Assembly (NCBI GenBank): GCA_028284765.1
Contig: JANQRA010000020.1
Span: forward strand, 14,513-78,512
Source of the DNA: Acidimicrobiia bacterium
GTDB taxonomy: Bacteria; Actinomycetota; Acidimicrobiia; Spongiisociales; ZC4RG35
Length of the DNA: 64,000 nucleotides
Reading direction: 5' to 3'
Each line of letters starts with the position of its first letter. The stretch's first letter is position 1. The notes beneath the pieces are model-generated. The model was not told where the DNA came from. It saw only the letters and a list, made by a program, of their open reading frames with translations, and did not search any database. The translations under genes were made by a program, and so were the position numbers. Shown here one piece after another: positions 2 to 18,583 of the stretch.

Positions 2-1069
2 TCGGTCACTAGATCGGCACTCTCGATTCCACCATGGTCTAAGGGCGCATTTCGGATCCTGAACAAGCACTGGCCAGTGTTCAAGGCGCTCGACCCGGCC
101 GCACTCCCCGGGCTGATCGAGAGCATGGGGCTGGCGGACAACACTCCGTATACGGTGGAAGATCTTGTTGAGTCGGTGAGGCTACGTCAGGGGCAAGAAG
201 CGAATCCGGAGGCCATTCCGGACCAAACGATCCGTGAGCAGGAGTATGAAGCTCTGACCAAAGGAGCGACTGACGCCGAAAGCAAGCTGGACCAGTTTGT
301 GTGCGAACCCGGAGCTCTAGGCGAGCGGGCCGACGAGTGGCTCGAACGGGTGATGCTCGTGCGACGACTCAGGGAGGTGCGGGTACTGCACTCGTTCACA
401 AGGGTCCAGCCGCCGAGCCCGGTCGATGATGAGTCAAGGCGACCCCCTCTGTTTGACGAACATCCGGGTTGGTACCCCGCGATCGAAGTCATCGGTGAGG
501 GCGTATTCCTCTCTGTCGACCAAGCACGGTTGAGGTCATGGGAAACCAATCAACACGTTGCGGCGCGAGCCGACAGCATCGACTCGAACTATCGCCAACG
601 CTTCACGGCAAAGGGGATCGCACCGGACAGGAAAATCACGCCGAGATTCCTCATGTTGCACGCCTTTGCCCACGCGATCATCAATCAGTGGAGCCTTGAT
701 TCCGGATACCCGGCCGCATCGTTGCGAGAACGCCTCTATGCGGGTGAGAACCAAGCAGGGGTGCTCATCTACACGGCAACAACGGACTCCGCCGGCAGCC
801 TGGGCGGGGTCGTGGGACTAGCCGAGCCTGACCGGCTTGATGATGCAATCGCGGAAGCGATCGCACGAGCCTCGTGGTGTTCGATGGACCCCGTGTGCAT
901 CGAATCCGAAGCAGGTGGAGTGGACGCGTTGAACCGGGCTGCGTGCCACGCCTGCTCGTTGCTACCCGAAGTGAGTTGCGAAGAGCAAAACGTCTTATTG
1001 GACCGGGGGATGCTGGTCGGCGCTGGGAGAACGCCGGGCTTTTTCTCTCATCTAGTCGCAGGCGTCTGA
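2..1069 (+). CDS. drmB: DISARM DrmB-like DUF1998 protein (5' partial; frame is open to the window edge)
   Basis: Frame open from base 2 (SALSIPPWS...). Motifs LHAFAHAII, GYPAASLRERLY, GVLIYT..DSAGSLGG and the C-terminal Cys cluster CSMDPVC...ACHACSLLPEVSCE are typical of DrmB/DUF1998. Confidence 0.85.
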   Translation, partial: SVTRSALSIPPWSKGAFRILNKHWPVFKALDPAALPGLIESMGLADNTPYTVEDLVESVRLRQGQEANPEAIPDQTIREQEYEALTKGATDAESKLDQFVCEPGALGERADEWLERVMLVRRLREVRVLHSFTRVQPPSPVDDESRRPPLFDEHPGWYPAIEVIGEGVFLSVDQARLRSWETNQHVAARADSIDSNYRQRFTAKGIAPDRKITPRFLMLHAFAHAIINQWSLDSGYPAASLRERLYAGENQAGVLIYTATTDSAGSLGGVVGLAEPDRLDDAIAEAIARASWCSMDPVCIESEAGGVDALNRAACHACSLLPEVSCEEQNVLLDRGMLVGAGRTPGFFSHLVAGV

Positions 1070-1071
1070 CC

Positions 1072-2787
1072 GTGACTCGCATGATCCCGGACCAGGTGTC
1101 TGACCATGTAACGAGCTCTGCCGAGCGTCGGATGTTCGATCGAATCCGGAAGGGTCTGAACGACAATTGGACCGCCCTGCACTCACTCGGTATCGCCCAC
1201 CACGCCACCAAACCATGGGCTGAGATCGACTTTGTTCTGATCGGGCCTCCCGGAGTTATCTGCCTCGAGGTGAAGGGTGGCCGGATCAGTCGAGAATCCG
1301 GAGAGTGGGCCTTTACCGACGGAGCGGAAAACCGGAGCCGAAAGCGTGAGGGTCCGTTCGAACAGGTCGGCTCTGCATCGTCTGCATTGCACAACTGGCT
1401 CAGGTCGAACGTGCATGGGCTTGGATCCCACTTCATTGCGTACGCAGTAGCTACACCGGATTCGACTTGGCGGGTCACGGGACCCGACATCGAACCAAAG
1501 CTCGTCTACGACGCGGCGAGTGCAGAATCCCCATTCGGGGACTTCATCGACCGGGTTGTCGAGTATTGGCGAGGCCTGGCATCCGATCGCATCGGGCTGT
1601 CGCCTGAACCGATCAACCAGATCATTCAGACGCGAATCGTTGACAGTCTGCGCGGTGACTTCGACCTTCGCCCGTCGATGAGAGCGCGAGTTCGAAACAT
1701 CAACGACGACCTCCTCTCCCTGACCACGGAGCAGTACCGAGTACTCGACGGTTTGGAAGAGAACAGCCGCGTCGTTGTCCGGGGCGGTGCTGGTACAGGT
1801 AAGACTCTCTTGGCGATCGAAGAGGCAGATCGCGCCATAAAGAAAGGCCGGAGTGTCGCCCTGCTCTGTTCTAGCCGACGGCTGAGTACGTATCTGGAAG
1901 AGGCTACGAACGGGTCCACCTTCGTAGGACATCTCCACGGGTTGATGGCCGACATCGTCAGGCGTTCAGGACGAAATTCACAGCTCCCCGACGTCGACGC
2001 CAACGATCTTTGGACACTTTTCTATCCAGAGCAGACTCTGGAAGGATTAGTGGATCTCGAAGAACTCGGGATAATTGATGTACTAATCGTGGATGAGTCA
2101 CAGGATCTTCTCCAAGACACCTACCTGGACGTCTTCGACGGACTGTTGGATGGTGGGCTCGCTCATGGAGCGTGGCGGTTCTTCCTCGATCCGGTCCAAA
2201 ACATCTTCGATGTAATGCACGCTCCAGCCATCCAGCGGCTCATGGCTCACGAACCGGCTCAGTTCACTCTGACGGTCAACTGCAGAAACACCCAACAGAT
2301 CGCGGTGCACACGTCACTTCTGTCCGACGTGGAGCTGCCGACTGTTCTTCAGGTCGAGGGCGAGAAGATCGACCAAGAGTGGTACTCGGACGACCGCGAC
2401 CTGAGACGTCGAGTTTCGCGACATGTGAATCGGCTGCTCGGTGGTGGTCTATCGCCACGTGACATAGCGGTCTTGGGCCCGTACCGCCTCGAGAATTCGG
2501 CTCTCTCTGATGGGCTCATCGACTCGGAGTATGCGATCTCCGATAACCCCGACGCCGACTGGAGACACATCCCATACTCGACCATCTCGAGTTTCAAAGG
2601 ACTCGAGGCAGATGCCGTTGTCGTCGTTGAGGTCGATGAGCTGTTGAGCGGTCAGGCGCGGTCTGACCTCTACGTTGGGACTTCGCGCGCTCGGGCGCTC
2701 CTGGCGGTCTTCGCTCAAGAAGGGGGTCGCGACGACTACGACGAGCTTGCCCGGCGGTTTGGTACGCGCCTGAAGAACGGTCCTTAG
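1072..2787 (+). CDS. NERD nuclease fused to a superfamily-1 (UvrD/DUF2075-like) helicase
   Basis: N-terminal EIDFVLIGPPGVICLEVKGG (NERD); Walker A GGAGTGKT; Walker B IVDESQD; C-terminal FKGLE and YVGTSRAR. Start GTG 1072 or ATG 1081, right after the drmB stop. Confidence 0.85.
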   Translation: MTRMIPDQVSDHVTSSAERRMFDRIRKGLNDNWTALHSLGIAHHATKPWAEIDFVLIGPPGVICLEVKGGRISRESGEWAFTDGAENRSRKREGPFEQVGSASSALHNWLRSNVHGLGSHFIAYAVATPDSTWRVTGPDIEPKLVYDAASAESPFGDFIDRVVEYWRGLASDRIGLSPEPINQIIQTRIVDSLRGDFDLRPSMRARVRNINDDLLSLTTEQYRVLDGLEENSRVVVRGGAGTGKTLLAIEEADRAIKKGRSVALLCSSRRLSTYLEEATNGSTFVGHLHGLMADIVRRSGRNSQLPDVDANDLWTLFYPEQTLEGLVDLEELGIIDVLIVDESQDLLQDTYLDVFDGLLDGGLAHGAWRFFLDPVQNIFDVMHAPAIQRLMAHEPAQFTLTVNCRNTQQIAVHTSLLSDVELPTVLQVEGEKIDQEWYSDDRDLRRRVSRHVNRLLGGGLSPRDIAVLGPYRLENSALSDGLIDSEYAISDNPDADWRHIPYSTISSFKGLEADAVVVVEVDELLSGQARSDLYVGTSRARALLAVFAQEGGRDDYDELARRFGTRLKNGP

Positions 2788-2853
2788 CGCACTCTAGGGT
2801 CAGGACACGTTGGGTTGGCGCGTCCGCAAGTTGATGGGCTGCAGCATGCAGAC

Positions 2854-2990
2854 CTGTCCCATCGGTCGGTGACGAAAGCGATCCCGGCGAGGGGGGCGTG
2901 TCCTGGGCCCTGGAAGACACCTGTCTAGGAGCTGACGCCATGGCTCAGCTGATTGCTGAATCTGGTATCGATCGCTTGGGGAGCGATCAC
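2854..2990 (+). repeat. Diverged copy 1 of the integrase leader (degenerate promoter/hairpin plus MAQLIAESGIDRLGSDH coding stretch)
   Basis: 2909-2990 aligns ungapped to 5144-5225 with 72/82 identities; weaker similarity extends back to CTGTCC at 2854. Confidence 0.9.
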
Positions 2991-3015
2991 CTTTGGAGGG
3001 ATCTAACTTTGGGGA

Positions 3016-3723
3016 GTGCCGATTTGCGATCCTGGAGAGCGGGTAGACGAGACAGGATTGGCTTACAAAGGTTCGATGCTCCAACTCCAGATCTACGTGA
3101 ATCGGTTCACCGACAGGATCAACTTGGCGGTGGCTAAAACGCTCAGATCGTCCGCGGAGATCAATTGGGTATCACCGCTTGCTGCCACTGGGTACGCCGA
3201 GTATCGCGACAAGAGCTTCCTTACCGCACTTGGTCTCGAGAGACACACACCTGAACTCGCTGACTTCTGGCCAGGTCGAGGGCCCTGTTGGGATGGACTG
3301 GGCCTTATCTCAGAAGGTTTCGGGCCTGAGCCCTTGCTCGTAGAGGCAAAAAGCTACCCCCAGGAGGGTTACTCGACCATGGCCGCAAAGTCGTCAGAGT
3401 CGGTCCGAAGGATCGAGGAAGCTCTGGACGTTACAGCCGTATGGCTCGGCTTGAATGAGCGGCCACCTTCGTGGACCCATGGCCGTTACCAGGTCGCCAA
3501 CCGCCTGGCGCACCTCTACTTCCTTCGCGAGGTGGTTGGCGTCGAAGCGCACGTAATCTTCGCCTTCTTTGTTAGAGACCCCACCCATATCTCGACAGAA
3601 CTCCGGGAATGGGAGCGAGCCACCGAGATCATGTGGGTCGAATTGGGAATGTCTGACCCACCTGACCACACGGGGGTTGTCTACCTGGACGGCGTTCGGC
3701 ATAACCCCAATCAAGGCATTTAG
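3016..3723 (+). CDS. Hypothetical protein, probable PD-(D/E)XK restriction-endonuclease-like nuclease
   Basis: GPCWDGLG...LLVEAKS (D...ExK) plus YQVANRLAHLYFLR motif; defence-island context; start uncertain. Confidence 0.6.
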   Translation: MPICDPGERVDETGLAYKGSMLQLQIYVNRFTDRINLAVAKTLRSSAEINWVSPLAATGYAEYRDKSFLTALGLERHTPELADFWPGRGPCWDGLGLISEGFGPEPLLVEAKSYPQEGYSTMAAKSSESVRRIEEALDVTAVWLGLNERPPSWTHGRYQVANRLAHLYFLREVVGVEAHVIFAFFVRDPTHISTELREWERATEIMWVELGMSDPPDHTGVVYLDGVRHNPNQGI

Positions 3724-3732
3724 GCTCGAAGC

Positions 3733-5066
3733 GTGAGTGAAACCAAGCTGCCGACCTACCTCGACCTGATGCTCCCGACCCTGTCCGCCGTCGAAGCGTT
3801 GGGCGGAAAAGCTCACATCCACGAGATCAATCCTGAGGCGATTGCCAAGGCCGGAATCACGGACGAGCAGATGGCCGTGGAGTTCCCGGAGGACTCTTCC
3901 CAAAGCGGACCGAAGGTCCTACATCGGCTGGCGTGGGCTCGAACTGTCCTTCGACGGGTGGACGCTCTGGAGTCGCTCGGTGGTGGCCTCTGGGCCTTGA
4001 CCGACACTGGCAGCACGATGCTCGCGCTTGATCCTGCTTAGGCCGATCATTGGCTGCAAGAAACCTTCGAGCTCAACGCGAACGAAAGGCAGCCGGGGAA
4101 AGACAAACTTGGCGCGTTCGAGGACAAGGCTACTTCCGGCTCACCAGAACAGATGACCGTCAGGGAACTAATCGGACTCTGGGGGGCAGGCCGACGGTGG
4201 TCGACTATCAATGAGAAGATCGTGGCTGCTCTGACCGCTCATGGACTCACCACCGACCCAGATTTCACAACCGTGGGGCTGGATCAGACGATTGAAATCG
4301 TCGGTGTCGAGGTTGGGAATGGCCAAGCGACTCCGATCACAGAACCCGCGACTCTCCGAGTAGGCACCTCCCGTCAGCTACGGCCGGTATCGAGAGCGTG
4401 ACTCCCAACGCCACCCTGCTCGAAGCCCAAACGAAGATGTGGACCAACGACTACTCACAGCTCGCTGTGATGAATGGGACCCGGAATCTGATTGGAGCCG
4501 TTTCGTGGGAATCGATTGCTCGCGCCCATTTGCAGAACCCTTCCGCCGAGCTCAAGGACTGCATCACCGACCCTGTCGAGGTGAAGGTCGAGACTCCACT
4601 GCTGGAGGCCATCCGAATCGTCGCTACCTCTGAGTTCGTGTTCGTAAGGGAGTACGACAACACGGTCTCCGGCATCGTCACCACGATGGATTTAAGTGAC
4701 CAGTTCTCAGCCCTGGCCGGACCCTTCTTGATTCTCGGAGAGATAGAGCGCCTACTCCGTATCCCCATCGATCGGGAATTCACGATCGACGAGCTCGTCG
4801 AGATGCTTGAACCCGACGATGGCCGCACCGTCACCGGGAGTCACTCTCTGACGTTGGGAGAGATTCAAAGAGTCATCACGGATCGTGAGAATTGGGAGAG
4901 GCTGAAATGGCCCGCTGATCGAAAGGTCTTCAACGAGGCGCTCGACAACATTCGAAAGACGCGCAACGAGATCATGCATTTCAATCCGGATCCGTTGGAA
5001 CCTGGTCGCCTCCACTTCCTCGAGGCCTTCTTGAAGATGGTGAGAGAGCTGGTCACCTCGGCTTAA
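3733..5066 (+). pseudogene. Disrupted Mrr_N winged-helix + CBS-pair + HEPN-like protein
   Basis: Mrr_N-like 3733-4041 (LPTYLDLMLPTL...RLAWARTVL...GLWALT). TAG at 4039-4041 is followed by the same open frame to the 4153 ORF. A 1-nt frameshift near 4366-4370 restores TLPSATAGIESVTP into the CBS domain (DYSQLAV, GIVTTMDL). C-terminal RNEIMH (RxxxxH). Confidence 0.7.
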
Positions 5067-5077
5067 GGCGCCAAAAA

Positions 5078-5100
5078 CTGTCCGTACCGTACGATACGTT
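5078..5100 (+). promoter_or_regulatory. RecA-NDp/PafBC-type promoter candidate upstream of the integrase
   Basis: cTGTCCgta-N8-TACGTT resembles the actinobacterial tTGTCRgtg-N8-TAnnnT consensus with the same spacing. Confidence 0.5.
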
Positions 5101-5114
5101 CACGTCAAGAAGGC

Positions 5115-5225
5115 GGCCCCGGCGGTGCTGGAACACCCCGGGGCCTGGACGACACCTAAACAGGAGGTGACGCCATGGCTCAGCTTATTGCTGACTCTGG
5201 TTTCGATCGCATGGGGAGCGATCAC
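5115..5225 (+). promoter_or_regulatory. Structured 5' leader of the integrase (three hairpins); copy 2 of the repeat
   Basis: GGCCCCGG-c-GGTG-ctggaa-CACC-CCGGGGCC (5115-5145); TGG.CG.CACCT/AGGTG.CG.CCA (5146-5175) covering the uORF RBS; GATCGC/GCGATC (5205-5223) around the integrase GGGGAG RBS. Confidence 0.65.
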
Positions 5226-5228
5226 TGA
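5175..5228 (+). CDS. 17-aa leader peptide MAQLIADSGFDRMGSDH, translationally coupled to the integrase
   Basis: AGGAGG RBS at 5162-5167; ATG 5175; its TGA overlaps the integrase ATG (TGATG); the paralogous copy at 2940 differs only by synonymous or conservative changes. Confidence 0.6.
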   Translation: MAQLIADSGFDRMGSDH

Positions 5229-6394
5229 TGCAGGGGCACATCCACAAGCGTGTCCGCACCTGCAAGAACGGTAGGAAGTCGACGCTTTGGTATGTGGTGG
5301 TCGACCTGCCGCAAGGCGCCAGCGGCGAGCGCCGGCAGAAATGGCACGGCGGGTTCCAGACTAAGAAGGCGGCGGAGGCGGTGCGGGCCCGTCTCGTCCA
5401 CGAGTTGACCACCGGGTTCTACGTGGAGCCGTCACGGATGCTGCTCAGCGAGTGGCTGGCCGACCACTGGTTGCCGGTTCACAAGACCCGGGTGAAGAAG
5501 ACGACGTATCGGGCGTATCGGTCGGCTGTCGTCCATCACATCAACCCGAGGATCGGTGGTGTGGCAATCGGGAAGCTGAAACCGCAGATGCTCAACAACC
5601 TCTACCAGCAGCTGTTGGCCGACGGACGATGTGACGGTGAAGGCGGGTTGGCTCCGGCGACGGTGAGCGGCGTCCACGTTGTGTTGCGTAAGGCGTTGGC
5701 CGACGCCGAGGACGCCGGGCTGATCCCGAGGAACCCGGCGATAGGGGCCAAACCGCCCCGTCCTAAGTCACAAGGAGGCGAGCTCCGCTACTGGACACCT
5801 GCCGAGCTGCGGGAGTTCCTCGATTTGGTCGAAGGGCATCGTCTCGAGGCGGCGTTTCATCTGCTGGCGATGACCGGAGCCCGACGTGGTGAGGTGGCTG
5901 GCCTTCGATGGGTCGATGTCGACCTCGATGCGGCCCGGATCACCATCCGTCAGAGGTTGCTGGCAGGAGACGGAGAGGTGTATCTGTCAAGTCCGAAGAG
6001 TGGGAGGGGGGGGACCGTCGATCTCGATCAGGCAACTGTGGACCAGCTGCGACAGCATCGGGAACGTCAGCGTCACGAGGCGGCGGAGACGTGGCGGTGG
6101 GAGGACAGCGGGTACGTGTTCACCAGGAAGGACGGGTCGGCGCTGAATCCGTCGACGTTGACCCGGGCGTTCCGGTGGATCGTCGACCATTCCGAGCTGC
6201 CCCGGATCCGTCTGCATGACCTGCGGCACACCCATGCCTCGATTGCGGTGAAGGCGGGTGTGCCCGTCGGTGTGGTCAGTGAGCGGTTGGGTCATGCCTC
6301 ACCGGAGTTCACCCTGCAACGGTATTCGCATGTGATGCCGGGGATGCAACGGGAGGCGGCGCATGCCGTGGCGAGGGCGGTTCGGTTTGGGTAA
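5228..6394 (+). CDS. Site-specific tyrosine integrase (ICE/phage type) with N-terminal arm-binding domain
   Basis: N-terminal WYVVVDL...RRQKWHGGFQTKKAAE arm-binding region; catalytic residues TGARRGE (R), SPKS (K), HDLRHTH, RLGH, YSH. Confidence 0.95.
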   Translation: MQGHIHKRVRTCKNGRKSTLWYVVVDLPQGASGERRQKWHGGFQTKKAAEAVRARLVHELTTGFYVEPSRMLLSEWLADHWLPVHKTRVKKTTYRAYRSAVVHHINPRIGGVAIGKLKPQMLNNLYQQLLADGRCDGEGGLAPATVSGVHVVLRKALADAEDAGLIPRNPAIGAKPPRPKSQGGELRYWTPAELREFLDLVEGHRLEAAFHLLAMTGARRGEVAGLRWVDVDLDAARITIRQRLLAGDGEVYLSSPKSGRGGTVDLDQATVDQLRQHRERQRHEAAETWRWEDSGYVFTRKDGSALNPSTLTRAFRWIVDHSELPRIRLHDLRHTHASIAVKAGVPVGVVSERLGHASPEFTLQRYSHVMPGMQREAAHAVARAVRFG

Positions 6395-6411
6395 GGATGC
6401 AATGGGACTGA

Positions 6412-7824
6412 CTAATCGTCGGTCGGCACGAAACCGAGTCGGCGCCTTGTATCATCGAAACTGAGAACTCGAGGTTGCAGCTCTGGGTCAAGAGCGGCGA
6501 GGGCAAGAAGGCCCTGGCAGTAACCGTGATATACGAGCTCTAATGTCCTGTCCACTCCGAGTCGGCTCAACACCGTCGGTGTTTCGTTTATGTCGTTCCG
6601 AGTCTCTCTCCAATGCTGCTCGTCCCACGAACCGAGGCTTTGAGGTAGAGCCGGAAAGGCGGTTAGGAGCCGCTCGTAGACGTCAGGCGATAGATCTCGA
6701 ATCCTCCGGGCCAACTCCATTGGGGTCTCCTGCAGCCTTATGACGTACCCGTCTACCCCAACATGGAGCGTCTCACGCTCCAAAAGGGCAGTTCTCGTAC
6801 GAGTGTTGCTCCGAAAGAGAACTCCTACGACCCTCAAATACGCTCCGAGTCGGCCCCATCTGCCCTTCCAGTCGTCGGGCGTTGATGCATCGAGACACAG
6901 GAACTCGATCGGATTGGATTCACCAATGGCGCCTTTGATGTGCCCGTGAAGCCACTCCGCTCCGAGGTTGTCGTGCACTCCCCCGTCGAGCAGCTTCAGG
7001 TGGGTTCCGAGCCTGCGGCGCGGGTGGTTGAAGCGCAGCTCACTCGTGGAGACCTTGACTGGAGGAAAAACCGGCGGAAAACCTGCACTGGCTGACACGG
7101 CTGTAGCGATCTTCAGATTGCGTGCCGAGTCGGCGGCTGCGGCGCCATAGTTCTCGAGTATCACTCCGGCGTTTGAGAAATACGCGTAACTGGCCGCCTT
7201 GAGATCCGTTGAGCACAGGACGTGCGTCGGATTGGGATGCATCTCACTGAGCGAGTACGAATTCCCGTCGGCTTGAGTTAGGTATCGGAACGCCGTTGTT
7301 GTCGATGCCTCAGTGCTCGGACTGAAGAAGAATTTCCAGTATGCCCCAGCAATGAGTGGTGCGAGCAGATAGACGTAGACGACGATCGCGGCGAGAATCA
7401 AGAACGCGAAGCCCAGCGCCATCAGCACCGTGGAGAATATGCCCCAGGCTTCGCCCCAAACGACCGTCCCAGTAAAGAAGGCTGCGTAGATCAGAGCAAT
7501 CGCACCTCCTATCCACAAAACCCTCTTCAGGGTGAAGTTCAGCACTCCGGTGTTTGCCACGAGACTCGCTAGCGGGCCAAGTTCGTTGGCGAGCGTCTCA
7601 TGGTCGATGTCTTCGAGGCCCTCGATCAGGCCGAGCTGGGCGTTGGTTACCGACCCTCCTGACACCGAAGCTATCGCCTTGACACGCCGGAATGCGCCGG
7701 TATCTGCCAAAGCGAGGGCGAGCCCGATTGCAAAAGCGGTAGCCCGGTGACCGCCTCCAGAGAAGGTAACAAACAGGTTTTGCTCCTGCGCGTCGGGAGC
7801 GGATCCACCGTTCCTACCAGACAT
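6412..7824 (-). CDS. Patatin-like phospholipase with two transmembrane helices
   Basis: FSGGGHRA glycine-rich loop, SVSGGS nucleophile elbow, DGGV motif; hydrophobic segments WIGGAIALIYAAFF and LMALGFAFLILAAIVVYVYLL. Start uncertain (7824 or 7896). Confidence 0.85.
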   Translation of the reverse strand: MSGRNGGSAPDAQEQNLFVTFSGGGHRATAFAIGLALALADTGAFRRVKAIASVSGGSVTNAQLGLIEGLEDIDHETLANELGPLASLVANTGVLNFTLKRVLWIGGAIALIYAAFFTGTVVWGEAWGIFSTVLMALGFAFLILAAIVVYVYLLAPLIAGAYWKFFFSPSTEASTTTAFRYLTQADGNSYSLSEMHPNPTHVLCSTDLKAASYAYFSNAGVILENYGAAAADSARNLKIATAVSASAGFPPVFPPVKVSTSELRFNHPRRRLGTHLKLLDGGVHDNLGAEWLHGHIKGAIGESNPIEFLCLDASTPDDWKGRWGRLGAYLRVVGVLFRSNTRTRTALLERETLHVGVDGYVIRLQETPMELARRIRDLSPDVYERLLTAFPALPQSLGSWDEQHWRETRNDINETPTVLSRLGVDRTLELVYHGYCQGLLALAALDPELQPRVLSFDDTRRRLGFVPTDD

Positions 7825-7909
7825 TCGTTCGATCCTATCAATAGAGGCATCCTCTAGTCCGCCCCGTTTGGTCCGACAGTGGCAGGCGATGAGCAAAGGC
7901 TCCCGACCA

Positions 7910-7929
7910 GTTTGACCCCCGTTTGACCC
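7910..7929 (+). repeat. Tandem GTTTGACCC direct repeat; possible integrase arm-type sites
   Basis: GTTTGACCCcc GTTTGACCC; a related CCCCGTTTGGTCC lies at 7862. Confidence 0.4.
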
Positions 7930-8095
7930 GAAGGTCGAAACTTCTCAAACCCCCAACAACCACAGCCCTCTCCCCCACGACCGCACCTAGTTCCCGATGC
8001 CCTCGCATGGCAATGAGTTCACTTCGTTCTGAACCTCATTGTCGTCCGAACTCGCAGCCAACAGCCACGACCGCAATTGTTAGCCTTGTGACTCA

Positions 8096-9577
8096 ATGCG
8101 TCACCACCGATTAGCAGTAGCCCTGCTATGCACAACTCTCCTTGTCTCAGCATGTGGCCAGACAGGCGAGGAGAGCACCACGACAACAACGTCGCCTGAT
8201 GAGCAGGTACCCGCTACGACATCTACTGAAACACCGCCGACGACTGGCTCCGCAGCTCCCGAGCCGCTCATCCGCAGCGATGACGGAATTCTCTCCGTGT
8301 TCGGCGAGACGGATGTGCCAATCACTGTTACCTCGGTCGACGACCACATCACCGACGGAAGCCTCGACGATGCCGAAACTGTCTTCAGCTACGAGCTAGG
8401 GCCGGATGGGCAGACGTTTGGCGAGCCGCTAACCCTCTTGTTCACGGTTCCCAGCCCCGAGAATGCCGGAGGTATCCCCGCAATCGCGATCGCCATCGAG
8501 TCGGGCGGGACCATCGAGACGCTGGAAGCCGACTCTGTCGAGGAAACGGAGGACGGCTACATCGTGGCTGTCGCCGTTGATCACTTCAGTCGTGTCACAT
8601 TCGGGATCGGCAGGTATGCGTATGCAGTCATCGAGTCCGAAGGCGGGCCCGTGGTTCGCCTCGGAGATCCCTATCGGATCCGCGTTTTCCTAGAGGGAGA
8701 CGAAGAAACGATCGACCAAAATGCCCGCAACTGGGCTCTCTCACTGCGAGTTAACGGGCCCGGCTTCGAAGATTCTTACGACATCGACTTCAGCAGAACG
8801 ACCGAAGAGACGTTGCTCTTCTCATGTGAGCGTGCCGGTTCAGTGACCATGAATGGGTTCTACAGCAGGTTCGTCAACGAACACCACATACCGAGATTCA
8901 TACCCGGAGACTTCTACAAACGCACCCAGCCGGTGGTCGAGTGCGTCGACCCCGATTCGATCGAGTTAGTTGCTCCGCACCCACCGCATGTAGCTCTCAT
9001 CAGTTGCATCGAGGTGAACGCAGGCGCTAACAGCTTGCCTGTAGACGAAACAGCCCTCGAAGATGCGATCCGGCGAATCGGAGGCAAACTCACAAAGAAG
9101 TCAGTCGAGTGCGACACTCACGGCGCTACCTTCGAAGCCGACGCGCGTGCTGCACACGCGATCGGAGCGGACCTCTACATATCGACGTTCGCTGCAGGCA
9201 GCAACTTCAGAGGCGCATATTGCGGAACGCTCGGCACGTGCACAGAAGAAGGGCGAAGCCCTCTCCCCGTCCTGCCACCGAATCAGAACTTCGTCCCCTT
9301 CGACACTCCAGGCGAGGTCGACGAAGATCTTCACACCTTTGCCAACGGTGAGTTCGACGGATATCGCCAATTCTCGGCCTATGAGACTTGGGAAATGCTG
9401 AACCAGGCGTTGCGCTGGTGGGTGGCTCTCGACGGCCGGACGGGTGCCCACAATCCTGAAGTCTCAGACGCTTACGGGACGATGACGTGGACCGATCTCG
9501 ACTGGACTGCTGACGCTGCGCCGTTTCCCGCTGACTACCAGAGTGCCTTCGTCGAGCAGTGGAAAGCGAATAAATAG
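8096..9577 (+). CDS. Hypothetical lipoprotein with a ZU5-like beta domain
   Basis: Lipobox LVSAC; Thr-rich linker; YELGPDGQTFGEPLTL...VDHFS motif. Confidence 0.7.
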   Translation: MRHHRLAVALLCTTLLVSACGQTGEESTTTTTSPDEQVPATTSTETPPTTGSAAPEPLIRSDDGILSVFGETDVPITVTSVDDHITDGSLDDAETVFSYELGPDGQTFGEPLTLLFTVPSPENAGGIPAIAIAIESGGTIETLEADSVEETEDGYIVAVAVDHFSRVTFGIGRYAYAVIESEGGPVVRLGDPYRIRVFLEGDEETIDQNARNWALSLRVNGPGFEDSYDIDFSRTTEETLLFSCERAGSVTMNGFYSRFVNEHHIPRFIPGDFYKRTQPVVECVDPDSIELVAPHPPHVALISCIEVNAGANSLPVDETALEDAIRRIGGKLTKKSVECDTHGATFEADARAAHAIGADLYISTFAAGSNFRGAYCGTLGTCTEEGRSPLPVLPPNQNFVPFDTPGEVDEDLHTFANGEFDGYRQFSAYETWEMLNQALRWWVALDGRTGAHNPEVSDAYGTMTWTDLDWTADAAPFPADYQSAFVEQWKANK

Positions 9578-10245: not shown

Positions 10246-11301
10246 GTGCCTGAGGCACCCACGACACACCTCCCACCAGGTCCACCCGCTGGCGTATACC
10301 GGAAAGCCACTGGAGTCTCCTGGCCCCCACCTCCAATCCCTCAAGCCGAGGATTTAGAAAGGGCGGCTCGCTTGGTCGCGACCGCGGGCCCACCCACTCC
10401 CCTCCAGGCCTCACCTGGGCTGTCAGAGGTGCTGGGCCGGCGAGTGCTTCTGAAACTCGAGCCTGAGTCACCGATCCGTTCCTTCAAACATCGAGGCGCA
10501 CTGATGGCCCTGAAGACGATCGCCGAGGTTGGCGGGTCGCCGATCGTCGTCACAGCGTCAACCGGCAACCACGGGCAAGGTGTTGCCTATGCCGCGAGCC
10601 TTCTTGGGTTCGAGTCGATCGTCCTCTCACCCAGTACAACTGCCGACGTCAAGATCGACGCCATGCGTGCGTTGGGAGCGGACGTTCGAATCCAAGGCGA
10701 GAATCTCGGACAGTCACAGGCCATGGCAGAAGAGCTGTCATCGAGGCTGTCTGAGGGTGTCTACATCGAAGACGGTGAGAACCCAGATCTGATGTCAGGT
10801 GCGGGAACACTGATGATGGAGATCCTCGATACAAGACCCGATGTAGACACCGTCGTGGTTCCTGTCGGCGGCGGGAACCTCATCGCCGGCTGTCTTCTGG
10901 CCAAGCAGATCGCGGGCAGCTCCGTGGAAGTCATCGGGGTGCAATCGTCGGCGGCGTCGGGCGTCACCCGCAGTTGGCTGGAAGGACGAATGACGGAGTG
11001 TCGATGTGACACCTTTGCTGGTGGGCTGGCGACGACCCGCCCCGGCCACCTCTCGCTCGAGGTCATGATCAACCTGCTCGAGACAATGGCTGTGGTGGAT
11101 GAGCATGATCTCTACGACGGAATCAAGACCACATGGGAACTCGACCAGTTTGAAATCGAAGGCGCAGCAGCAGCCTCCATCGCTGCAGCGAAGCGCTTCC
11201 CGGATCTTCACCTCGGTGAGACGGTGGTTCTCATCGTCACCGGCAGCTGGCTATCAGCCGCCGAGCGAGAGATCGCCATCAACGGCGCTAGCCAGGCATG
11301 A
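10246..11301 (+). CDS. PLP-dependent threonine/serine dehydratase family protein
   Basis: SFKHRG (PLP lysine), ASTGNHG, PVGGGNL. Confidence 0.9.
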   Translation: MPEAPTTHLPPGPPAGVYRKATGVSWPPPPIPQAEDLERAARLVATAGPPTPLQASPGLSEVLGRRVLLKLEPESPIRSFKHRGALMALKTIAEVGGSPIVVTASTGNHGQGVAYAASLLGFESIVLSPSTTADVKIDAMRALGADVRIQGENLGQSQAMAEELSSRLSEGVYIEDGENPDLMSGAGTLMMEILDTRPDVDTVVVPVGGGNLIAGCLLAKQIAGSSVEVIGVQSSAASGVTRSWLEGRMTECRCDTFAGGLATTRPGHLSLEVMINLLETMAVVDEHDLYDGIKTTWELDQFEIEGAAAASIAAAKRFPDLHLGETVVLIVTGSWLSAAEREIAINGASQA

Positions 11302-12887
11302 CCAGAACCCTGCTTACCGGGGGAAGCGTCTTCGACGGCACCGGTTCCGAAGGGTCATCTCTCGACCTGATGATCGAGGACGATCGGATATCAGCAGTCT
11401 CGACGAGGATCGAGCCGAGTCCCGATGTCAGGGTCATCGACGTCAAAGGCAAGGTGGTCACTCCCGGGTTCATTGACCTCCACTCCCACGCCGATTTCTC
11501 GATCCTCGCCTTCCCTGATGCCCAGTCGGCGCTCCTTCAGGGCATCACGACTATCGCGACAGGCAACTGCGGAGGCGGAGTCGCGCCGATCGCTAGCGAG
11601 GATGCCTTGAGAAAGGTGGCCTTTGCCTACGACCCGTCCTGGGAAGTCGAGGTCGACTGGGCAACGTTCGGCGAATACGCCCACAGACTCGACGGAGCCG
11701 CCGTCAACGTGGCGCCTCTTGTCGCCCATGGTCCGATACGAAACAGCGTTATGGGAATGACACCCCGAGAGCCGACTCAAGACGAGCAGCAGGCGATGAA
11801 CGACCTCCTCCGTCAATGTCTCGAAGAAGGCGCTTTCGGCCTTTCATCAGGGCTCGAGTACGAGCCAGGCAAATGGGCCAGTCCGGCCGAGATCGAATCG
11901 CTAGTCGGCGTGGTCGGTCGTGAGGGAAGGCTCTACGCAACCCATATGAGAGACCGAGCTGACCGGTACGTCGAAGCCACAGCAGAGGCACTGACTGCAT
12001 CAATGAAGGGAAATGCGCGTCTGCAGCTCTCGCATTTTGCTCCCCGGCCACATGCCCCATCGGAAACAGCCAATCGGGCGTTCGATCTCGTTGAAGAAGC
12101 GTTCGGCGGAGGCTTTCCGATTGGGATCGATACCTTCCCGGAAGTTTGGGGTCCCGCACTTCTCATCGATCTGTTCCCCGAGTGGTCCCTCGAGGGATCC
12201 CCCAGCGAAGTTCTGGACCGTCTATCGGACCCAGACGCCAGACAGAAGATCTCGAGACATTTTCAGGCCGCCGACTCGTTCCTTGTTAGGGCCGCTGGGT
12301 ACGAGGAGATCTACATAGCCGACGCGCCTGGCGCACCTGAGCTGAGCGGCGTGAGCCTCGTTGATATCGACCACACCCAGGACGTCGGCACAGCAGCCAC
12401 CGAGGTTCTCCTTGGTGCCGGAGTCGACTTCAGATCTGTTGCTATCCGGCATGTATACGCAACCGAGGCAGATCTTCGACGCGTAATAGCCATGCCGAAC
12501 TGCTCGTTCGAGAGCGACGGCGTCGTCACCAGTGGCGAGGACGAGGCTTGTCGTTTGCTCTGGAACGCGTCGTCTTATGGATATACCGCACGTGTGATCG
12601 AGCACTATGTCGGGGCCGAAGCGTTCCTGACAATGGCGGAGGCGGTGCGCAAGATGACATCGTTGCCAGCGCGGGCCCTCGGGATCAGCGATCGTGGTGA
12701 GCTGCGCCCCGGAGCCGTTGCGGACATCGTCGTGATTGACCCTCAGCAGGTCGCGGACCGAACCACCCCAAACACCCCTGCTCGCCACCCGAGGGGCATC
12801 GAGCACGTGTTCGTCAATGGTGTACTCGCCGTTGAGAACACCCAATACAAGGGCGTCCGAGCCGGGCAACTCCTGAAGCCCCAGTAG
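11298..12887 (+). CDS. N-acyl-D-amino-acid deacylase (amidohydrolase)
   Basis: PGFIDLHSHAD, GNCG, YATHMRD, RKMTSLPA, ADIVV. Confidence 0.9.
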   Translation: MTRTLLTGGSVFDGTGSEGSSLDLMIEDDRISAVSTRIEPSPDVRVIDVKGKVVTPGFIDLHSHADFSILAFPDAQSALLQGITTIATGNCGGGVAPIASEDALRKVAFAYDPSWEVEVDWATFGEYAHRLDGAAVNVAPLVAHGPIRNSVMGMTPREPTQDEQQAMNDLLRQCLEEGAFGLSSGLEYEPGKWASPAEIESLVGVVGREGRLYATHMRDRADRYVEATAEALTASMKGNARLQLSHFAPRPHAPSETANRAFDLVEEAFGGGFPIGIDTFPEVWGPALLIDLFPEWSLEGSPSEVLDRLSDPDARQKISRHFQAADSFLVRAAGYEEIYIADAPGAPELSGVSLVDIDHTQDVGTAATEVLLGAGVDFRSVAIRHVYATEADLRRVIAMPNCSFESDGVVTSGEDEACRLLWNASSYGYTARVIEHYVGAEAFLTMAEAVRKMTSLPARALGISDRGELRPGAVADIVVIDPQQVADRTTPNTPARHPRGIEHVFVNGVLAVENTQYKGVRAGQLLKPQ

Positions 12888-12951
12888 ACACCAGCAACTC
12901 AACCCCAATTGAATGTCAATAGTTCAAGATGTTCGACTAATTTGAGAGGCT

Positions 12952-13728
12952 ATGCCAGAGCACACCGCGCCAAGAGTTCTAACTGAGGGTGACACATCAT
13001 CCTCGACCCTCAGATTCCATCCAGTCGCCCTGACCCGAGCCCACGAAGAAGTGGTTGATCAGATCATCTACGCCATCCGGTCCGGCTTGCTCGGAGTTGG
13101 CGACAGGCTTCCCACAATCGAGGAGCTGGCTGACCTGACGGAAGTCAGTAAACCGGTTGTTGGCGACGCCGTGAAGCTCTTGCGCGAGCACGGCATTCTC
13201 GAAACCAAACGAGGTGTTCAAGGTGGCGTCACGGTCATCAATGATGAGATCCCAACCAAGCTCATGCTTATCGCCTCCGGATGGCGGAAGGCAACACTTA
13301 CCGAGTTGGTGGAAGCTCGCAGGCCGATCGAGCTCGAGCTTGCCTTGCTCGCTGGGGAACGGGCAACACAAGAGAACTTCGACGCCATGAGAGATGCGTT
13401 ACGCCAGCTCAAAGAGGCCGGGGCAGACGAACGGAAAGGCGCCTTCCTGCGCTACGACCATCTTTTTCACTATCAGATCGGAATAGCTGCGCAAAGCGAG
13501 AAGCTCGCGTACCTCCAACATCGGGTGCTCAGCGAGATTGCCGCGAAGCTCTACGAATACGAGCTGTTCCACGAGGACATCAGCTTGGTGCTGACAACTC
13601 ATGAAGAGATCTTGAGGGCTCTCGAGACTCGGAACCCCGAGACCATCCACGGTGCGCTCGACAAGCACTGGAGAACCTCGGATGGTGCCTTTGCTTCTCT
13701 CGAAGCGATCGGCCCAACTGACGGCTAG
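12952..13728 (+). CDS. GntR/FadR family transcriptional regulator
   Basis: N-terminal wHTH (GDRLPTIEELA...RGVQGG); FCD domain (EARRPIE, FHYQI). Confidence 0.9.
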   Translation: MPEHTAPRVLTEGDTSSSTLRFHPVALTRAHEEVVDQIIYAIRSGLLGVGDRLPTIEELADLTEVSKPVVGDAVKLLREHGILETKRGVQGGVTVINDEIPTKLMLIASGWRKATLTELVEARRPIELELALLAGERATQENFDAMRDALRQLKEAGADERKGAFLRYDHLFHYQIGIAAQSEKLAYLQHRVLSEIAAKLYEYELFHEDISLVLTTHEEILRALETRNPETIHGALDKHWRTSDGAFASLEAIGPTDG

Positions 13729-13743
13729 ACGCCGACTCGAGTT

Positions 13744-14751
13744 GTGGCCAGAGTGTCGGCCCTACGGGTCGCAATCATCGGATGTGGCTTCCAGGGCGGC
13801 TACCATGCCCAGGCCCTCAGCAATACCCGAGATGTGAGGGTGACGGTCTGCTGCGACGCAGACCTGTCAGTCGCCACTCAACTCGCTGACCAATTCGACG
13901 GGTGTGATGCGACTAGTGACTGGGAAGCGATCATGTCCGACCCAGCTGTTGATGCGGTGGTGATCGCAACCCCCACCCATACCCACACCAACCTGGCTAT
14001 CGCTGCCGCCCGAGCCAATAAGCCGATGCTCTTGGAAAAGCCGATGGCAACGACAGTCGACGACTGTCTGAGAATCGAGGCAGCCGCTCGGGCGGCCGGT
14101 GTGCCAATCCTGATGGGCTTCAAGTTCCGGTTCGCACCCGCCGTGCTGCGAGCCAAACAGGCGGTACCTGTGGGCCGAGTCCTCAGTGGCCATACCCTCT
14201 ACGACTCGGCGCAAATCACGTCTTCCTGGGTCAGCAATCCTCACATGAGCGGCGGGCGCGTCACTAGCTCACTGGTCCACACCGTTGACCTCCTGCGATT
14301 TCTCACCGAAAGCGACCCCGCAAGGGTCTCGGCCGAGGCATCAGACCTGCTCGGCACCGGGGAGCCGACGACCATCGCAGCGACCATTCAATTCGAGAAC
14401 GGTGCCATCGCGTCGATCCTCCACGGCACATCGACGCGAAGCCCTCTCCTATCGGCATGGTCCTTCACCACGTCAACAAGCGACGCCTCGGCAACAGTGT
14501 TCGACCACTGCAGACAGGTCGCCGTCCGTGCCAATGGGCAGGACCAGGCGACATTCGTGGATGACGTTGAAGATCCCTTCGCTGCCGGCATGGAGGGACT
14601 CGCTCAGGCTTTCGCTGATTCGGCCAGATCGTCGACCGCACACAGCCCCCATGGACGTGACGGAGTCATATCGCTGGTGACATGCAGGGCAATAGAGAAG
14701 GCAGCGGGTTCGGGGAAGACCCAGAAGGTCGAAATCCCGAGTCAGGTCTAG
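13744..14751 (+). CDS. Gfo/Idh/MocA family oxidoreductase
   Basis: IIGCGFQG, IATPTHTH, LEKP. Confidence 0.9.
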   Translation: MARVSALRVAIIGCGFQGGYHAQALSNTRDVRVTVCCDADLSVATQLADQFDGCDATSDWEAIMSDPAVDAVVIATPTHTHTNLAIAAARANKPMLLEKPMATTVDDCLRIEAAARAAGVPILMGFKFRFAPAVLRAKQAVPVGRVLSGHTLYDSAQITSSWVSNPHMSGGRVTSSLVHTVDLLRFLTESDPARVSAEASDLLGTGEPTTIAATIQFENGAIASILHGTSTRSPLLSAWSFTTSTSDASATVFDHCRQVAVRANGQDQATFVDDVEDPFAAGMEGLAQAFADSARSSTAHSPHGRDGVISLVTCRAIEKAAGSGKTQKVEIPSQV

Positions 14752-14754
14752 GCC

Positions 14755-15660
14755 CTAGCTCATCTCACTAGTCCGCGGGTCGAGCGCATCCCGGAGCCCG
14801 TCACCAACGAAGTTGATCGACAAGACCGTCAATGTGATTAAGAGGCCGGGCGGAATCCACAGCCACGGCATCGTTTCGAGGATTGTGAGATTCTGAGCCT
14901 CATTGAGGATGCTTCCCCAGCTGGCAGTTGGCGGGGACAGTCCGAAACCGAGGAATGACAGCGCCGATTCGATGAGAATCGCTTGCGCAGCAAGGAGAGT
15001 TCCGGCAACGGTCAGTGGTCCGATTGCGGCAGGTATCAAATGCCGAACGGTCGTGTGAAGACCTCGGGCTCCAAAAGCACGCGCGGCCTGGACGAACTCC
15101 TGTTCTTTGATTGCAACTGTCATATTCCGCACCAGGCGACCCGAGATCGGCCATTGGAAGAGCGCCATCACCAGGACAATGGTTGTCACGTTCCGCCCGA
15201 AACGAGTGACGAAGAAGATGATAAGCACGAGGGTGGGGAACGACAGGACGACCTCGACAAGCCTCATGAAGATCCAGTCGAACACGCCTCCCCGGTATCC
15301 CGCAATCGTTCCAAAGACGAGCCCGATGAACACAGTCGAGATTGCAGACGCGAACCCGATCAACAGGGAGACCCGGCCTCCGTACAAGACCCGGGCAAAG
15401 ACGTCGCGCCCGGCCTGGTCAGTCCCCAACCAGTGCTCTGTAGAGGGCGGCTGAAGTACGACCGAGAGGTCAACCGCGTTGGGGTCTTGCGCGATCCAAG
15501 GGGCCAGGATTGACATCACTGTCACCAGTGTCAGGAAGAAAAGGCCGCCGATTGCAAGCTTGTTCCGCCGGAACCTCCGCCAGGCACGACTGCTCGGACT
15601 TTGGCCCACACTCGGTTCAGCCTCTAGACCTAGAGGTTCCATCGCGACGTCGGTCACCAC
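14755..15660 (-). CDS. Dpp/Opp-type ABC transporter permease (DppC-like)
   Basis: HWLGTDQAGRD, EFVQAARAFGA, ESALSFLGFG, NFVGDGLRDALDP. Confidence 0.92.
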   Translation of the reverse strand: MVTDVAMEPLGLEAEPSVGQSPSSRAWRRFRRNKLAIGGLFFLTLVTVMSILAPWIAQDPNAVDLSVVLQPPSTEHWLGTDQAGRDVFARVLYGGRVSLLIGFASAISTVFIGLVFGTIAGYRGGVFDWIFMRLVEVVLSFPTLVLIIFFVTRFGRNVTTIVLVMALFQWPISGRLVRNMTVAIKEQEFVQAARAFGARGLHTTVRHLIPAAIGPLTVAGTLLAAQAILIESALSFLGFGLSPPTASWGSILNEAQNLTILETMPWLWIPPGLLITLTVLSINFVGDGLRDALDPRTSEMS

Positions 15661-15709
15661 GACAACGTCCCCTGACGAACGGACAGACAGTTGCGACGAC
15701 TAGCCATGC

Positions 15710-16666: not shown

Positions 16667-16717
16667 CGGTCCTCCTGTTCAAGTGCCTGGCACACCGCAG
16701 TATCCGCAGCCAAGGCT

Positions 16718-16755: not shown

Positions 16756-16792
16756 TGCATCAGCCCTCAGTTACGGAGGTGTATTGAGGTTC

Positions 16793-18532: not shown

Positions 18533-18583
18533 CTCGATCCCTTCAGAAGCCAACGGGCAGCCCTTCCCAGAGCCATTTCGACC

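What the first reader, a model, noticed from the sequence alone, without database searches (positions are those of the whole stretch)
2854..5230. Integrase leader module is duplicated, and the orphan copy sits in front of defence genes
Seen: 2909-2990 and 5144-5225 are ungapped direct repeats (72/82 identical), with weaker similarity further upstream. Similarity stops exactly where the integrase begins (…GATCAC|TGATG versus …GATCAC|CTTTGG). The two copies bracket a 2.2-kb block holding a nuclease and the Mrr_N-CBS-HEPN gene. Inference: either related integrative elements inserted serially at one hotspot and the first lost its integrase, or the leader acts as a cassette boundary or expression module that captures defence genes next to a single integrase (integron-like accretion without attC sites). 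The repeats could also let the block be deleted or amplified by recombination.
Basis: partly seen in the sequence, partly recalled or inferred. Interest (0 to 1): 0.78.

Follow-up and report, generated by a model that had tools for sequence, protein, structure and literature searches.

The report
Leftover integrase leader in defence island
The repeated stretch is the control region that sits in front of a mobile-element integrase gene, and the extra copy is most likely the decayed stump of an older, related element whose integrase was lost, which is an ordinary way for defence islands to grow.

Summary
The repeat is real: 72 of 82 bases match, and weaker similarity extends over 2869-3000 vs 5104-5235.

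The unit is the 5' region of a tyrosine-integrase module. It consists of a 12-bp GC hairpin, a Shine-Dalgarno site and a 17-codon ORF whose stop overlaps the integrase ATG. Relatives carry a full 73-84 aa HTH_17 excisionase-like gene at that position, so the short ORF is probably an internally deleted xis.

I found 14 copies of this unit in the own genome, relatives and metagenome contigs. Thirteen lie directly before an integrase. Only the copy at 2.9 kb does not.

That orphan copy shows decay:
- its hairpin no longer folds better than shuffled sequence;
- the stop/ATG overlap is gone;
- it is more diverged from every intact copy than those are from each other, and no closer to its neighbour;
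- the DS-11 (CBS-HEPN) defence gene behind it is frameshifted.

Related genomes hold arrays of an intact integrase followed by truncated integrases.

Verdict: serial insertion followed by decay is supported. Integron-like capture at the leader is not. One point stays unexplained: the break falls at gene boundaries. No syntenic strains or raw reads were available to test block gain or loss.

The parts
2855..3000 (+). Orphan leader. It holds the decayed left-end region, the hairpin remnant (about 2880-2910), the SD remnant AGGAGC (2927-2932), and the 17 uORF codons (2940-2990). The uORF has no stop and runs on as a 65-codon ORF to 3137.
   Evidence: alignment; hairpin remnant -12.6 kcal/mol, with 193 of 200 shuffles folding at least as well; model R1 scores 88.5 bits here, against 123-174 bits for the six copies the model was built from (G009, a training copy, scores 173.5 bits). 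Other full-length matches before an integrase score lower: G386 75.9 bits and G148 70.2 bits.
3016..3723 (+). ORF of 235 aa, intact. It belongs to a widespread family of hypothetical proteins with a PD-(D/E)xK-like fold.
   Evidence: 1108 homologues with E <= 0.001, none with a nuclease Pfam domain. D93, E110 and K112 are invariant. AlphaFold2 model with pLDDT 95.1; best structural neighbours are NucS/EndoMS, BstEII, SfsA and PaqCI at Z 7.5-6.2. Foldseek found nothing at E <= 0.001.
3733..4041 (+). Small ORF (102 aa) with an Mrr_N domain, ended by TAG.
   Evidence: PF14338, E 1.6e-12; translation; weak match to the N-terminus of a type IV restriction enzyme.
4153..5066 (+). DS-11-type (CBS + HEPN) anti-phage gene, broken by a frameshift between 4318 and 4398.
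   Evidence: residues encoded by 4398-5066 match NF053863 positions 89-304 of 305, E 1.3e-73; residues from 4153 match positions 1-52 in another frame; translations; an independent contig of run X1 covers 2600-5192 with no differences.
5092..5228 (+). Intact leader: hairpin 5115-5145, SD AGGAGG 5162-5167, and the 17-codon uORF 5175-5228 (MAQLIADSGFDRMGSDH) whose TGA overlaps the integrase ATG.
   Evidence: The conserved module starts at 5092-5113 in all contexts compared.
5228..6394 (+). Tyrosine integrase, 388 aa, with Arm-DNA-binding, SAM-like and catalytic domains.
   Evidence: PF00589 E 1.4e-23, PF14659, PF14657; paralogue on contig C4 at 96% aa identity and orthologues at 90-94% in G003, G009 and G023; orthologues at 94% in G141 and G148.
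6412..7896 (-). Cargo gene of the intact element: a patatin-like phospholipase domain protein (494 aa).
   Evidence: PF01734, E 2.1e-10. It is replaced by other genes between integrase and 'seg' in the C4 paralogue and in relatives.
7909..7997 (+). 'seg': a conserved ~90-nt element (two GTTTGAC repeats 12 nt apart, then CCCAACAAC.ACAGGCCTCTCC...ACCGCACCTA). It follows integrase + cargo in related elements and is the probable right end or arm of the element.
   Evidence: In other metagenomes, similarity resumes at 7909/7910 after the integrase end.

Best explanation
The repeated unit is the 5' control region of the recombination module of a family of small integrase-carrying mobile elements. 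It has three parts:
- a 12-bp GC-rich hairpin with one bulged C;
- a strong ribosome-binding site;
- a 17-codon ORF whose stop codon overlaps the integrase start.

The short ORF is most likely what remains of an excisionase (xis) gene. Translation of it would deliver ribosomes to the integrase start; this is inferred, not shown.

The copy at 5092-5228 belongs to an intact element made of leader, integrase, one cargo gene (patatin-like) and a ~90-nt terminal element.

The copy at about 2855-3000 is the decayed left end of an older, related element that sat at the same place and lost its integrase. A PD-(D/E)xK-like gene, an Mrr_N ORF and a frameshifted DS-11 gene now follow it.

The island therefore grew by serial insertion (accretion) and later decay of the older recombination module. 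The orphan leader is a scar, not a capture site.

Shown: the anatomy, the conservation and covariation of the hairpin, the distribution of copies, and the decay of the orphan. Inferred: the order of events, the xis origin of the short ORF, and the translational coupling.
For: 1. Distribution. There are 14 copies of the 17-codon unit: three in the own genome, one each in G003, G009, G023, G141 and G148, and six metagenome contigs. Thirteen lie directly before an integrase ORF with the stop/start overlap kept. Only the copy at 2.9 kb does not.

2. Hairpin. It folds at -25.7 to -27.3 kcal/mol in 6 of 6 leaders before intact integrases. In the orphan it folds at -12.6 kcal/mol, and 193 of 200 shuffles fold at least as well. 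Across 24 matches, not counting the orphan, 97.8% of cells pair and 8 of 12 pairs change on both sides; 0 of 500 shuffles reach either value. The hairpin is therefore under selection elsewhere and has been released in the orphan.

3. Divergence. The orphan is 87-93 of 110-111 bases identical to the intact 17-codon copies, which share 98-104 of 110-111 with each other. It is no closer to its neighbour (88/111) than to G009 (93/111). It is not a recent local duplication.

4. Decay next door. The DS-11 homologue is split between two frames.

5. Precedent in relatives. G003, G141 and G148 have an intact integrase followed by cargo and 5'-truncated integrase copies.

6. xis origin. G326 and G285 (and the unpublished G269) have the same hairpin and SD followed by a 73-84 aa ORF and then the integrase; its stop overlaps the integrase ATG as TGATG in G326 and G285, while G269 has the integrase ATG a few bases after the stop. 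The ORFs of G326 and G285 match HTH_17. The uORF aligns to the first 19 nt and the last ~30 nt of that gene.

7. The hairpin is not the terminator of an upstream gene. On contig C4 the upstream gene is divergent.
Against: - The loss of the integrase is oddly tidy. Similarity ends at about integrase codon 3, and the next gene starts 16 nt later at GTG 3016. Random deletion end points would rarely give this.
- No 'seg' or other end remnant lies between the DS-11 stop (5066) and the left end of the intact leader (5092). A simple tandem of two complete elements therefore needs a second loss.
- The orphan's uORF part (44-48 of 51) is no more diverged than that of G023 or G141. Decay is clear only in the hairpin, the left end and the stop/ATG.
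- The hairpin + SD part alone precedes other kinds of first genes in other genomes, so a portable leader is not excluded.
- The att sites of the element were not identified.
- No strain or read data allow a test of block gain or loss.
- The frameshift rests on one metagenome's reads.
Confidence: 0.7

Rival explanations
1. Cassette capture at the leader. A circular DNA carrying a leader copy plus the block (3001-5091) recombined with the leader of the resident integrase, by homologous or integrase-mediated recombination in Campbell fashion. This left leader-block-leader-integrase. The leader would then act as a recurrent entry point for defence genes, integron-like but without attC.
For: Direct repeats flank the block exactly as a Campbell insertion would leave them. 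The junctions fall at gene boundaries. In relatives, partial copies of the integrase 3' end likewise flank inserted cargo. Cargo between integrase and 'seg' differs in every element compared, so module boundaries are exchange points.
Against: Only 1 of 14 copies of the unit is orphaned. No second leader-block-leader case was found in 151 family genomes, 60 relatives or 6 metagenome contigs. The orphan's hairpin is broken. The integrase is not an integron integrase: TIGR02249 gives 33.1 bits against a cut-off of 265. The block is not a unit elsewhere: 0 of 80 loci with a homologue of 3016-3723 hold Mrr_N, DS-11 or this integrase within 4 kb.
Confidence: 0.12
2. Exapted expression module. Whatever its origin, the orphan leader is kept because its promoter region and ribosome-binding site now drive the PD-(D/E)xK-like gene and the genes behind it.
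For: The SD remnant (AGGAGC) and the ATG are kept, and the uORF part is 47 of 51 identical to the intact copy. The next gene starts 16 nt after the end of similarity and is intact and conserved.
Against: The extended uORF (65 codons, ending at 3137) overlaps the next gene's start out of frame instead of ending at it. The hairpin and the conserved left-end motif (TACGTT) are lost. No promoter-like site was predicted in 2700-5300. No expression data exist.
Confidence: 0.12
3. Assembly artefact. The orphan copy or its junctions come from a mis-join of metagenomic contigs at a repeated sequence.
For: The genome is a 23-contig assembly whose only holder is one metagenome run. The integrase module is present twice at 92% identity, which breaks contigs in the second assembly.
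Against: A separate assembly of run X1 has one 28,574-nt contig covering 2600-5192 without a single difference. The orphan differs from both other copies at 12-21% of positions, so it cannot be a collapsed or copied repeat.
Confidence: 0.03

Closest known systems
Tandem accretion of integrative elements and their decay to CIME-like remnants (ICE/IME/CIME tandems of streptococci)
   Same: In both, a resident element loses its recombination genes and a related element with an intact integrase sits next to it, giving a composite island with internal remnants. The review PMC5704250 (passages read) describes a three-step route of integration, decay and integration of a further element, and says the partners in tandems are generally decayed elements.
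   Different: CIMEs are defined by retained attL and attR sites. Here no att site could be identified, and no right-end remnant separates the two units. The elements are far smaller (about 3-5.5 kb: integrase plus one or a few cargo genes), and no transfer genes were seen.
Integrons (IntI, attI, attC cassettes)
   Same: One integrase stands next to variable single-gene cargo, and a structured hairpin lies close to the integrase.
   Different: The integrase scores far below the integron-integrase cut-offs. It has an arm-binding N-terminal domain. The hairpin lies in the integrase leader and not at cassette ends. The block is not bounded by a folded site on its right side.
xis-int operons of temperate phages and integrative elements with overlapping genes
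   Same: Relatives have an HTH_17 excisionase-like gene whose stop overlaps the integrase start. That such overlap is common in xis-int operons is recalled knowledge, not tested here.
   Different: In this clade the xis is reduced to 13-17 codons lacking the HTH, while the overlap is kept in all 13 copies that precede an integrase. These elements therefore appear to lack their own excisionase.
Small tyrosine-recombinase cargo elements in tandem arrays: tycheposons, and Dehalococcoides ssrA genomic islands
   Same: Short integrase-led elements carry variable cargo and pile up at one site. For bioRxiv 10.1101/2020.12.28.424599 and PMC3146451 I saw only the search listings and the starts of the abstracts.
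   Different: As I recall, those elements integrate at tRNA or tmRNA genes and leave direct repeats of the gene end. No tRNA or tmRNA is present in the window or in 9 related loci.

Membership tests
Tyrosine (phage-type) integrase | Catalytic Phage_integrase domain with an N-terminal SAM-like core-binding domain | tested here: met
   PF00589 E 1.4e-23 (84 bits against a cut-off of 27.1), PF14659 E 6.7e-10, and Arm-DNA-bind_4 PF14657 E 5e-07.
Integron | Integron-type integrase (IntI) | tested here: not met
   TIGR02249 gives 33.1 bits against a cut-off of 265; NF011946 gives 21.3 bits against 435.
Integron | Cassettes each bounded by a folded attC-like site | tested here: not met
   Only one hairpin-type site lies near the block, and it is degraded. 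Model R1 finds no site at the block's right end other than the leader of the intact integrase.
CIME / tandem accretion of integrative elements | Remnant element that has lost its integrase but keeps attL and attR | tested here: inconclusive
   Loss of the integrase behind a retained left-end region is seen. The att sites were not identified and no flanking direct repeat was found.
CIME / tandem accretion of integrative elements | A related element with an intact integrase lies adjacent | tested here: met
   Leader, integrase, cargo and seg occupy 5092-7997.
Excisionase (HTH_17 / Xis) | Helix-turn-helix domain of about 50 residues | tested here: not met
   The window's ORF has 17 codons. The ORFs at the same position in G326 and G285 match PF12728 at E 5e-10 and 3e-12.
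DS-11 anti-phage protein (CBS + HEPN) | Full-length match to NF053863 above its cut-off, in one open frame | tested here: not met
   The match is 247.8 bits for profile positions 89-304 plus 32.4 bits for positions 1-52, in two different frames; the cut-off is 260. This is a homologue with a broken frame. The family was shown to defend in PMC13092281 (passages read).
PD-(D/E)xK nuclease (for ORF 3016-3723) | Restriction-endonuclease-like fold with a D...(D/E)xK motif | tested here: inconclusive
   D93, E110 and K112 are invariant in 30 sequences. The top structural neighbours are PD-(D/E)xK enzymes at Z 7.5-5.0, which is in the range the tool calls common. Foldseek found nothing at E <= 0.001.
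Any Rfam RNA family (for the leader hairpin) | Match at the gathering score | tested here: not met
   0 matches in the window; the best match is E 0.15 on the opposite strand.

The most novel reading that the evidence does not exclude
The leader, the integrase stop and the ~90-nt 'seg' element are fixed exchange points of a modular mini-element family made of an integrase plus one defence gene. This family spreads among several genera of this actinobacterial-type family and into soil and mangrove communities. On this reading, the orphan leader is the scar of a cargo swap or capture at the leader/integrase boundary. The hairpin, or seg, would serve as a recognised recombination site. The system would then accrete defence genes next to a single excisionase-less integrase in an integron-like way, but with different sites.
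Probability: 0.1. Interest if true: 0.7.

Novelty: new member of a known kind. Interest (0 to 1): 0.3.

Why it matters
The main result is a clarification. A feature that looked like a gene-capture module is best read as the stump of a decayed integrative element, so defence-island growth here follows the familiar route of accretion and decay.

Three by-products may be useful to people who study mobile elements:
- A conserved, covarying hairpin-plus-SD leader, absent from Rfam, precedes the first genes of recombination and regulatory modules in this bacterial family.
- A clade of integrases has an excisionase reduced to a 13-17-codon coupled ORF, yet looks recently mobile. Integrase identity is 90-96% across four genera.
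- A compact 'integrase + one defence gene + 90-nt end' architecture carries patatin-like or kinase cargo.

If the recombination sites of these elements were mapped, they could show how single defence genes are shuttled in little-studied marine and soil Actinobacteria-like lineages.

Tried and rejected
- tRNA/tmRNA as target: none in the window or in 9 related loci.
- Rfam: nothing at gathering score. With the E-value threshold there were only two chance-level rows.
- Promoter scan of 2700-5300: 0 sigma-70-like sites. The terminator-like sites are not at the hairpin.
- Remains of the lost integrase: tblastn found no integrase similarity in the 1.7 kb behind the orphan.
- Search for 'seg' near the block: the profile finds only one copy on this contig, at 7909-7996.
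- att core: comparing left and right junctions by eye gave no shared direct repeat. Left open.
- Empty site: the right flank of the C4 element is shared with G003, G009 and G141. It is itself patchy and multi-copy, so no clean empty site was obtained.
- Syntenic locus for block gain or loss: in 60 relatives, only 2874-2990 of window 1-5091 matches anything. In 5 relatives, window 1-20000 matches only in the integrase module and an ABC-transporter segment.
- ORF 3016-3723 was not found in 300 other genomes of the order.
- Reads: only run X1 (the probable source) holds the region, and only as contigs. No joint from 2990 to 5225 was listed. Contigs drop rare variants, so this says nothing about excision.
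- Foldseek against PDB gave no match at E <= 0.001.
- Supplements of the cited papers were not consulted.
Full report
THE OBSERVATION

The repeat is real. Window 2909-2990 and 5144-5225 match at 72 of 82 positions without gaps. In the same register, identity is 24/40 over 2869-2908 and 6/10 over 2991-3000, then drops to background (10/40). The repeat finder gives 2869-3000 vs 5104-5235 at 77%, and blastn against the whole genome gives E 1.3e-22.

A third copy lies on contig C4 of the same genome. It sits in front of a second integrase that is 96% identical in protein.

WHAT THE UNIT IS

Reading the intact copy gives three parts:
- a GC hairpin at 5115-5145, with 8 bp, a bulged C, 4 bp and a 6-nt loop;
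- an AGGAGG site at 5162-5167;
- a 17-codon ORF at 5175-5228 (MAQLIADSGFDRMGSDH), whose TGA shares its A with the ATG of a 388-aa tyrosine integrase.

The integrase has Phage_integrase, SAM-like and arm-binding domains.

The hairpin folds at -25.7 to -27.3 kcal/mol in all six leaders that precede intact close homologues: window, C4, G003, G009, G023 and G017. It shows compensatory changes.

I built a covariance model from these six. It found 24 matches in 15 of 151 genomes of the family. On 24 matches aligned to the model, with the orphan left out, 97.8% of cells pair and 8 of 12 pairs change on both sides. No shuffle out of 500 reaches either value, and sliding the partners gives 34-59% paired. 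This alignment was fitted to the model and so leans towards the structure.

On C4 the upstream gene is divergent. The hairpin therefore belongs to the integrase module and is not a neighbour's terminator. No Rfam family matches.

THE SHORT ORF IS PROBABLY A GUTTED xis

In G326 and G285, and in the unpublished G269, the same hairpin and SD are followed by a 73-84 aa ORF and then an integrase that is 46-54% identical. In G326 and G285 the stop of that ORF overlaps the integrase ATG as TGATG; in G269 the ATG lies a few bases after the stop. The G326 and G285 ORFs match HTH_17.

The window's ORF aligns to the first 19 nt and the last ~30 nt of that gene, with the middle missing. G017 and G386 have other short forms of 16 and 13 codons.

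The six metagenome contigs and the other integrase-preceding copies for which the sequence was printed keep the 17-codon length, while the peptide varies (F/C, M/I/L, H/R/Y). All 13 copies before an integrase keep the stop/start overlap. This fits selection for translation up to the integrase start rather than for the peptide. That last point is inference.

WHAT FOLLOWS EACH COPY

The 24 model matches fall into five groups:
- 8 are a leader plus short ORF plus integrase: window, C4, G003, G023, G141, G017, G386 (integrase in two frames at a contig end), and G148.
- 3 are a leader plus HTH_17-type ORF plus integrase: G326, G285, G269.
- 1 is the G148 hairpin, separated from its own SD and integrase by a 1.19-kb insertion.
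- 11 are the hairpin + SD part alone, in front of other first genes. Seven are in G349; one of those was tested and is an XRE-type HTH. The others are in G033, G384 (weak Phage_integrase, E 0.0012), the unpublished G297, and G364.
- 1 is the orphan.

Adding G009 and six metagenome contigs found with a motif of the short ORF, the 17-codon unit occurs 14 times. It lies directly before an integrase 13 times.

THE ORPHAN IS DECAYED

- Its hairpin remnant folds at -12.6 kcal/mol, and 193 of 200 shuffles fold at least as well.
- The left-end motif conserved in the others is lost to substitutions and a small deletion.
- TGATG has become CTTTG, so the ORF runs on for 65 codons, out of frame, across the start of the next gene.
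- It is 87-93 of 110-111 bases identical to the intact 17-codon copies, which share 98-104 with each other. It is not closest to its neighbour. It is therefore an older or separately acquired copy, not a local duplication.

The excess divergence sits in the hairpin (18-22 of 31, against 25-29 among intact copies). The uORF part is no more diverged than in G023 or G141.

THE BLOCK BETWEEN THE COPIES

ORF 3016-3723 is intact and belongs to a large family of hypothetical proteins (1108 hits). D93, E110 and K112 are invariant. The model is confident (pLDDT 95). Its best structural neighbours are PD-(D/E)xK nucleases, but only at Z 7.5-5.

Mrr_N is a separate 102-aa ORF.

The CBS-HEPN gene is a DS-11 homologue. 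DS-11 is a one-protein defence system shown to act in PMC13092281 (passages read). Here it is split between two frames. A second assembly of the same run agrees base for base over 2600-5192.

The three genes are not a unit elsewhere. None of 80 loci with a homologue of the first gene holds Mrr_N, DS-11 or this integrase within 4 kb.

Upstream of the orphan lie DrmB-like and NERD-helicase genes. From about 10.2 kb onward the window is metabolic. The island therefore ends shortly after the intact element.

THE ELEMENT FAMILY

Only the leader + integrase (5092-6396) and a ~90-nt element, 'seg' (7909-7997), are shared with relatives. What lies between them differs:
- patatin-like in the window;
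- a PD-T4-6-like kinase on C4;
- other genes in G009, G023 and elsewhere.

In other metagenomes only these two parts are covered, and similarity breaks at 6381-6391 and resumes at 7909/7910. What lies between is not known there.

G003, G141 and G148 carry arrays of an intact integrase, cargo, 5'-truncated integrase copies and seg copies. This shows that these elements do pile up and decay. The same route is described for ICE/IME/CIME tandems (PMC5704250, passages read).

WHAT DOES NOT FIT NEATLY

- The loss of the integrase begins at about its third codon, and the next gene starts 16 nt later.
- No seg remnant separates the block from the intact leader.
- The att sites could not be found.

A Campbell-type insertion of a leader-bearing circle, or a cargo swap at module boundaries, would also leave this picture. 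I give that about 0.1, because no second example was found in any data set searched.

Block gain or loss between strains could not be tested. No relative has a syntenic locus, and only contigs of the probable source run hold the region.

VERDICT

The integron-like half is not.

Claims that rest partly on unpublished genomes:
- G269 is one of three examples of the full xis; G326 and G285 are not flagged.
- G297 is one of eleven hairpin-only matches.
- G039 and G050 appear only as rows among distant integrase homologues.

Noticed in passing
G000 contig C4:4613-8306 (locus L046), C22:2267-2356 (L047), and window 7909-7997: The ~90-nt 'seg' element occurs five times in inverted orientation within 3.7 kb on C4. 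The copies lie between single accessory genes (GNAT, Fic and unknowns), about 7 kb upstream of the C4 integrase. One further copy is on C22. The pattern looks like an array of cassette boundaries or of old element ends.
   Followed up: partly
L039:13965, L040:482, L073:4770 and 3547, L072:5593 and 7459, L043:11359: All 5'-truncated integrase copies in related arrays begin within window-equivalent 6017-6306. Three begin at 6125, 6126 and 6137 (the last in a contig of run X2), with unrelated upstream flanks. This is either a hotspot or chance.
   Followed up: partly
L065 (G148:C4), oriented 61-1290: In G148 the hairpin is separated from the SD, short ORF and integrase by a 1.19-kb insertion. By eye its minus strand encodes an IS110-like transposase remnant; the motif is recalled and was not tested.
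   Followed up: no
Loci L055, L064, L067-L071 (G349), L056 (G033), L059 (G384), L062 (G364): The hairpin + SD leader, without the short ORF, precedes other first genes: XRE-type HTH, weakly recombinase-like, and unknown. There are seven copies in one genome. This is a candidate new leader motif of mobile-element modules, with no Rfam family.
   Followed up: partly
Window 2-2787: The window opens with a DrmB-like (DISARM) gene and a NERD + UvrD-type helicase similar to DRT-associated helicases. The orphan leader therefore sits inside a larger defence island that continues to the left of the window.
   Followed up: no
G000 contig C4:15486-19526 (L044:7500-11527): A paralogous element has the same leader and integrase. 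Its cargo is an 847-aa protein with a PD-T4-6-like Ser/Thr kinase and an HD/dGTPase-like domain. A Shedu SduA_C gene lies just upstream. Its right flank is shared with the loci of G003, G009 and G141, which marks a common insertion hotspot.
   Followed up: partly
Window 5031-6526 and 7836-8022, in runs X2, X6, X8: The integrase module and seg, but nothing else of 2600-8200, are covered at high summed depth in contigs from other metagenomes (organism A, soil, mangrove). The element family is therefore widespread outside the source sample.
   Followed up: no
Window 10246-24164: From about 10.2 kb the genes are metabolic or transport genes: a PLP enzyme, an amidohydrolase, GntR, an oxidoreductase, an Opp-type ABC transporter, an enolase-superfamily protein and a peptidase S9. 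Yet almost none of 8-20 kb matches five same-genus or same-family genomes at the DNA level.
   Followed up: no
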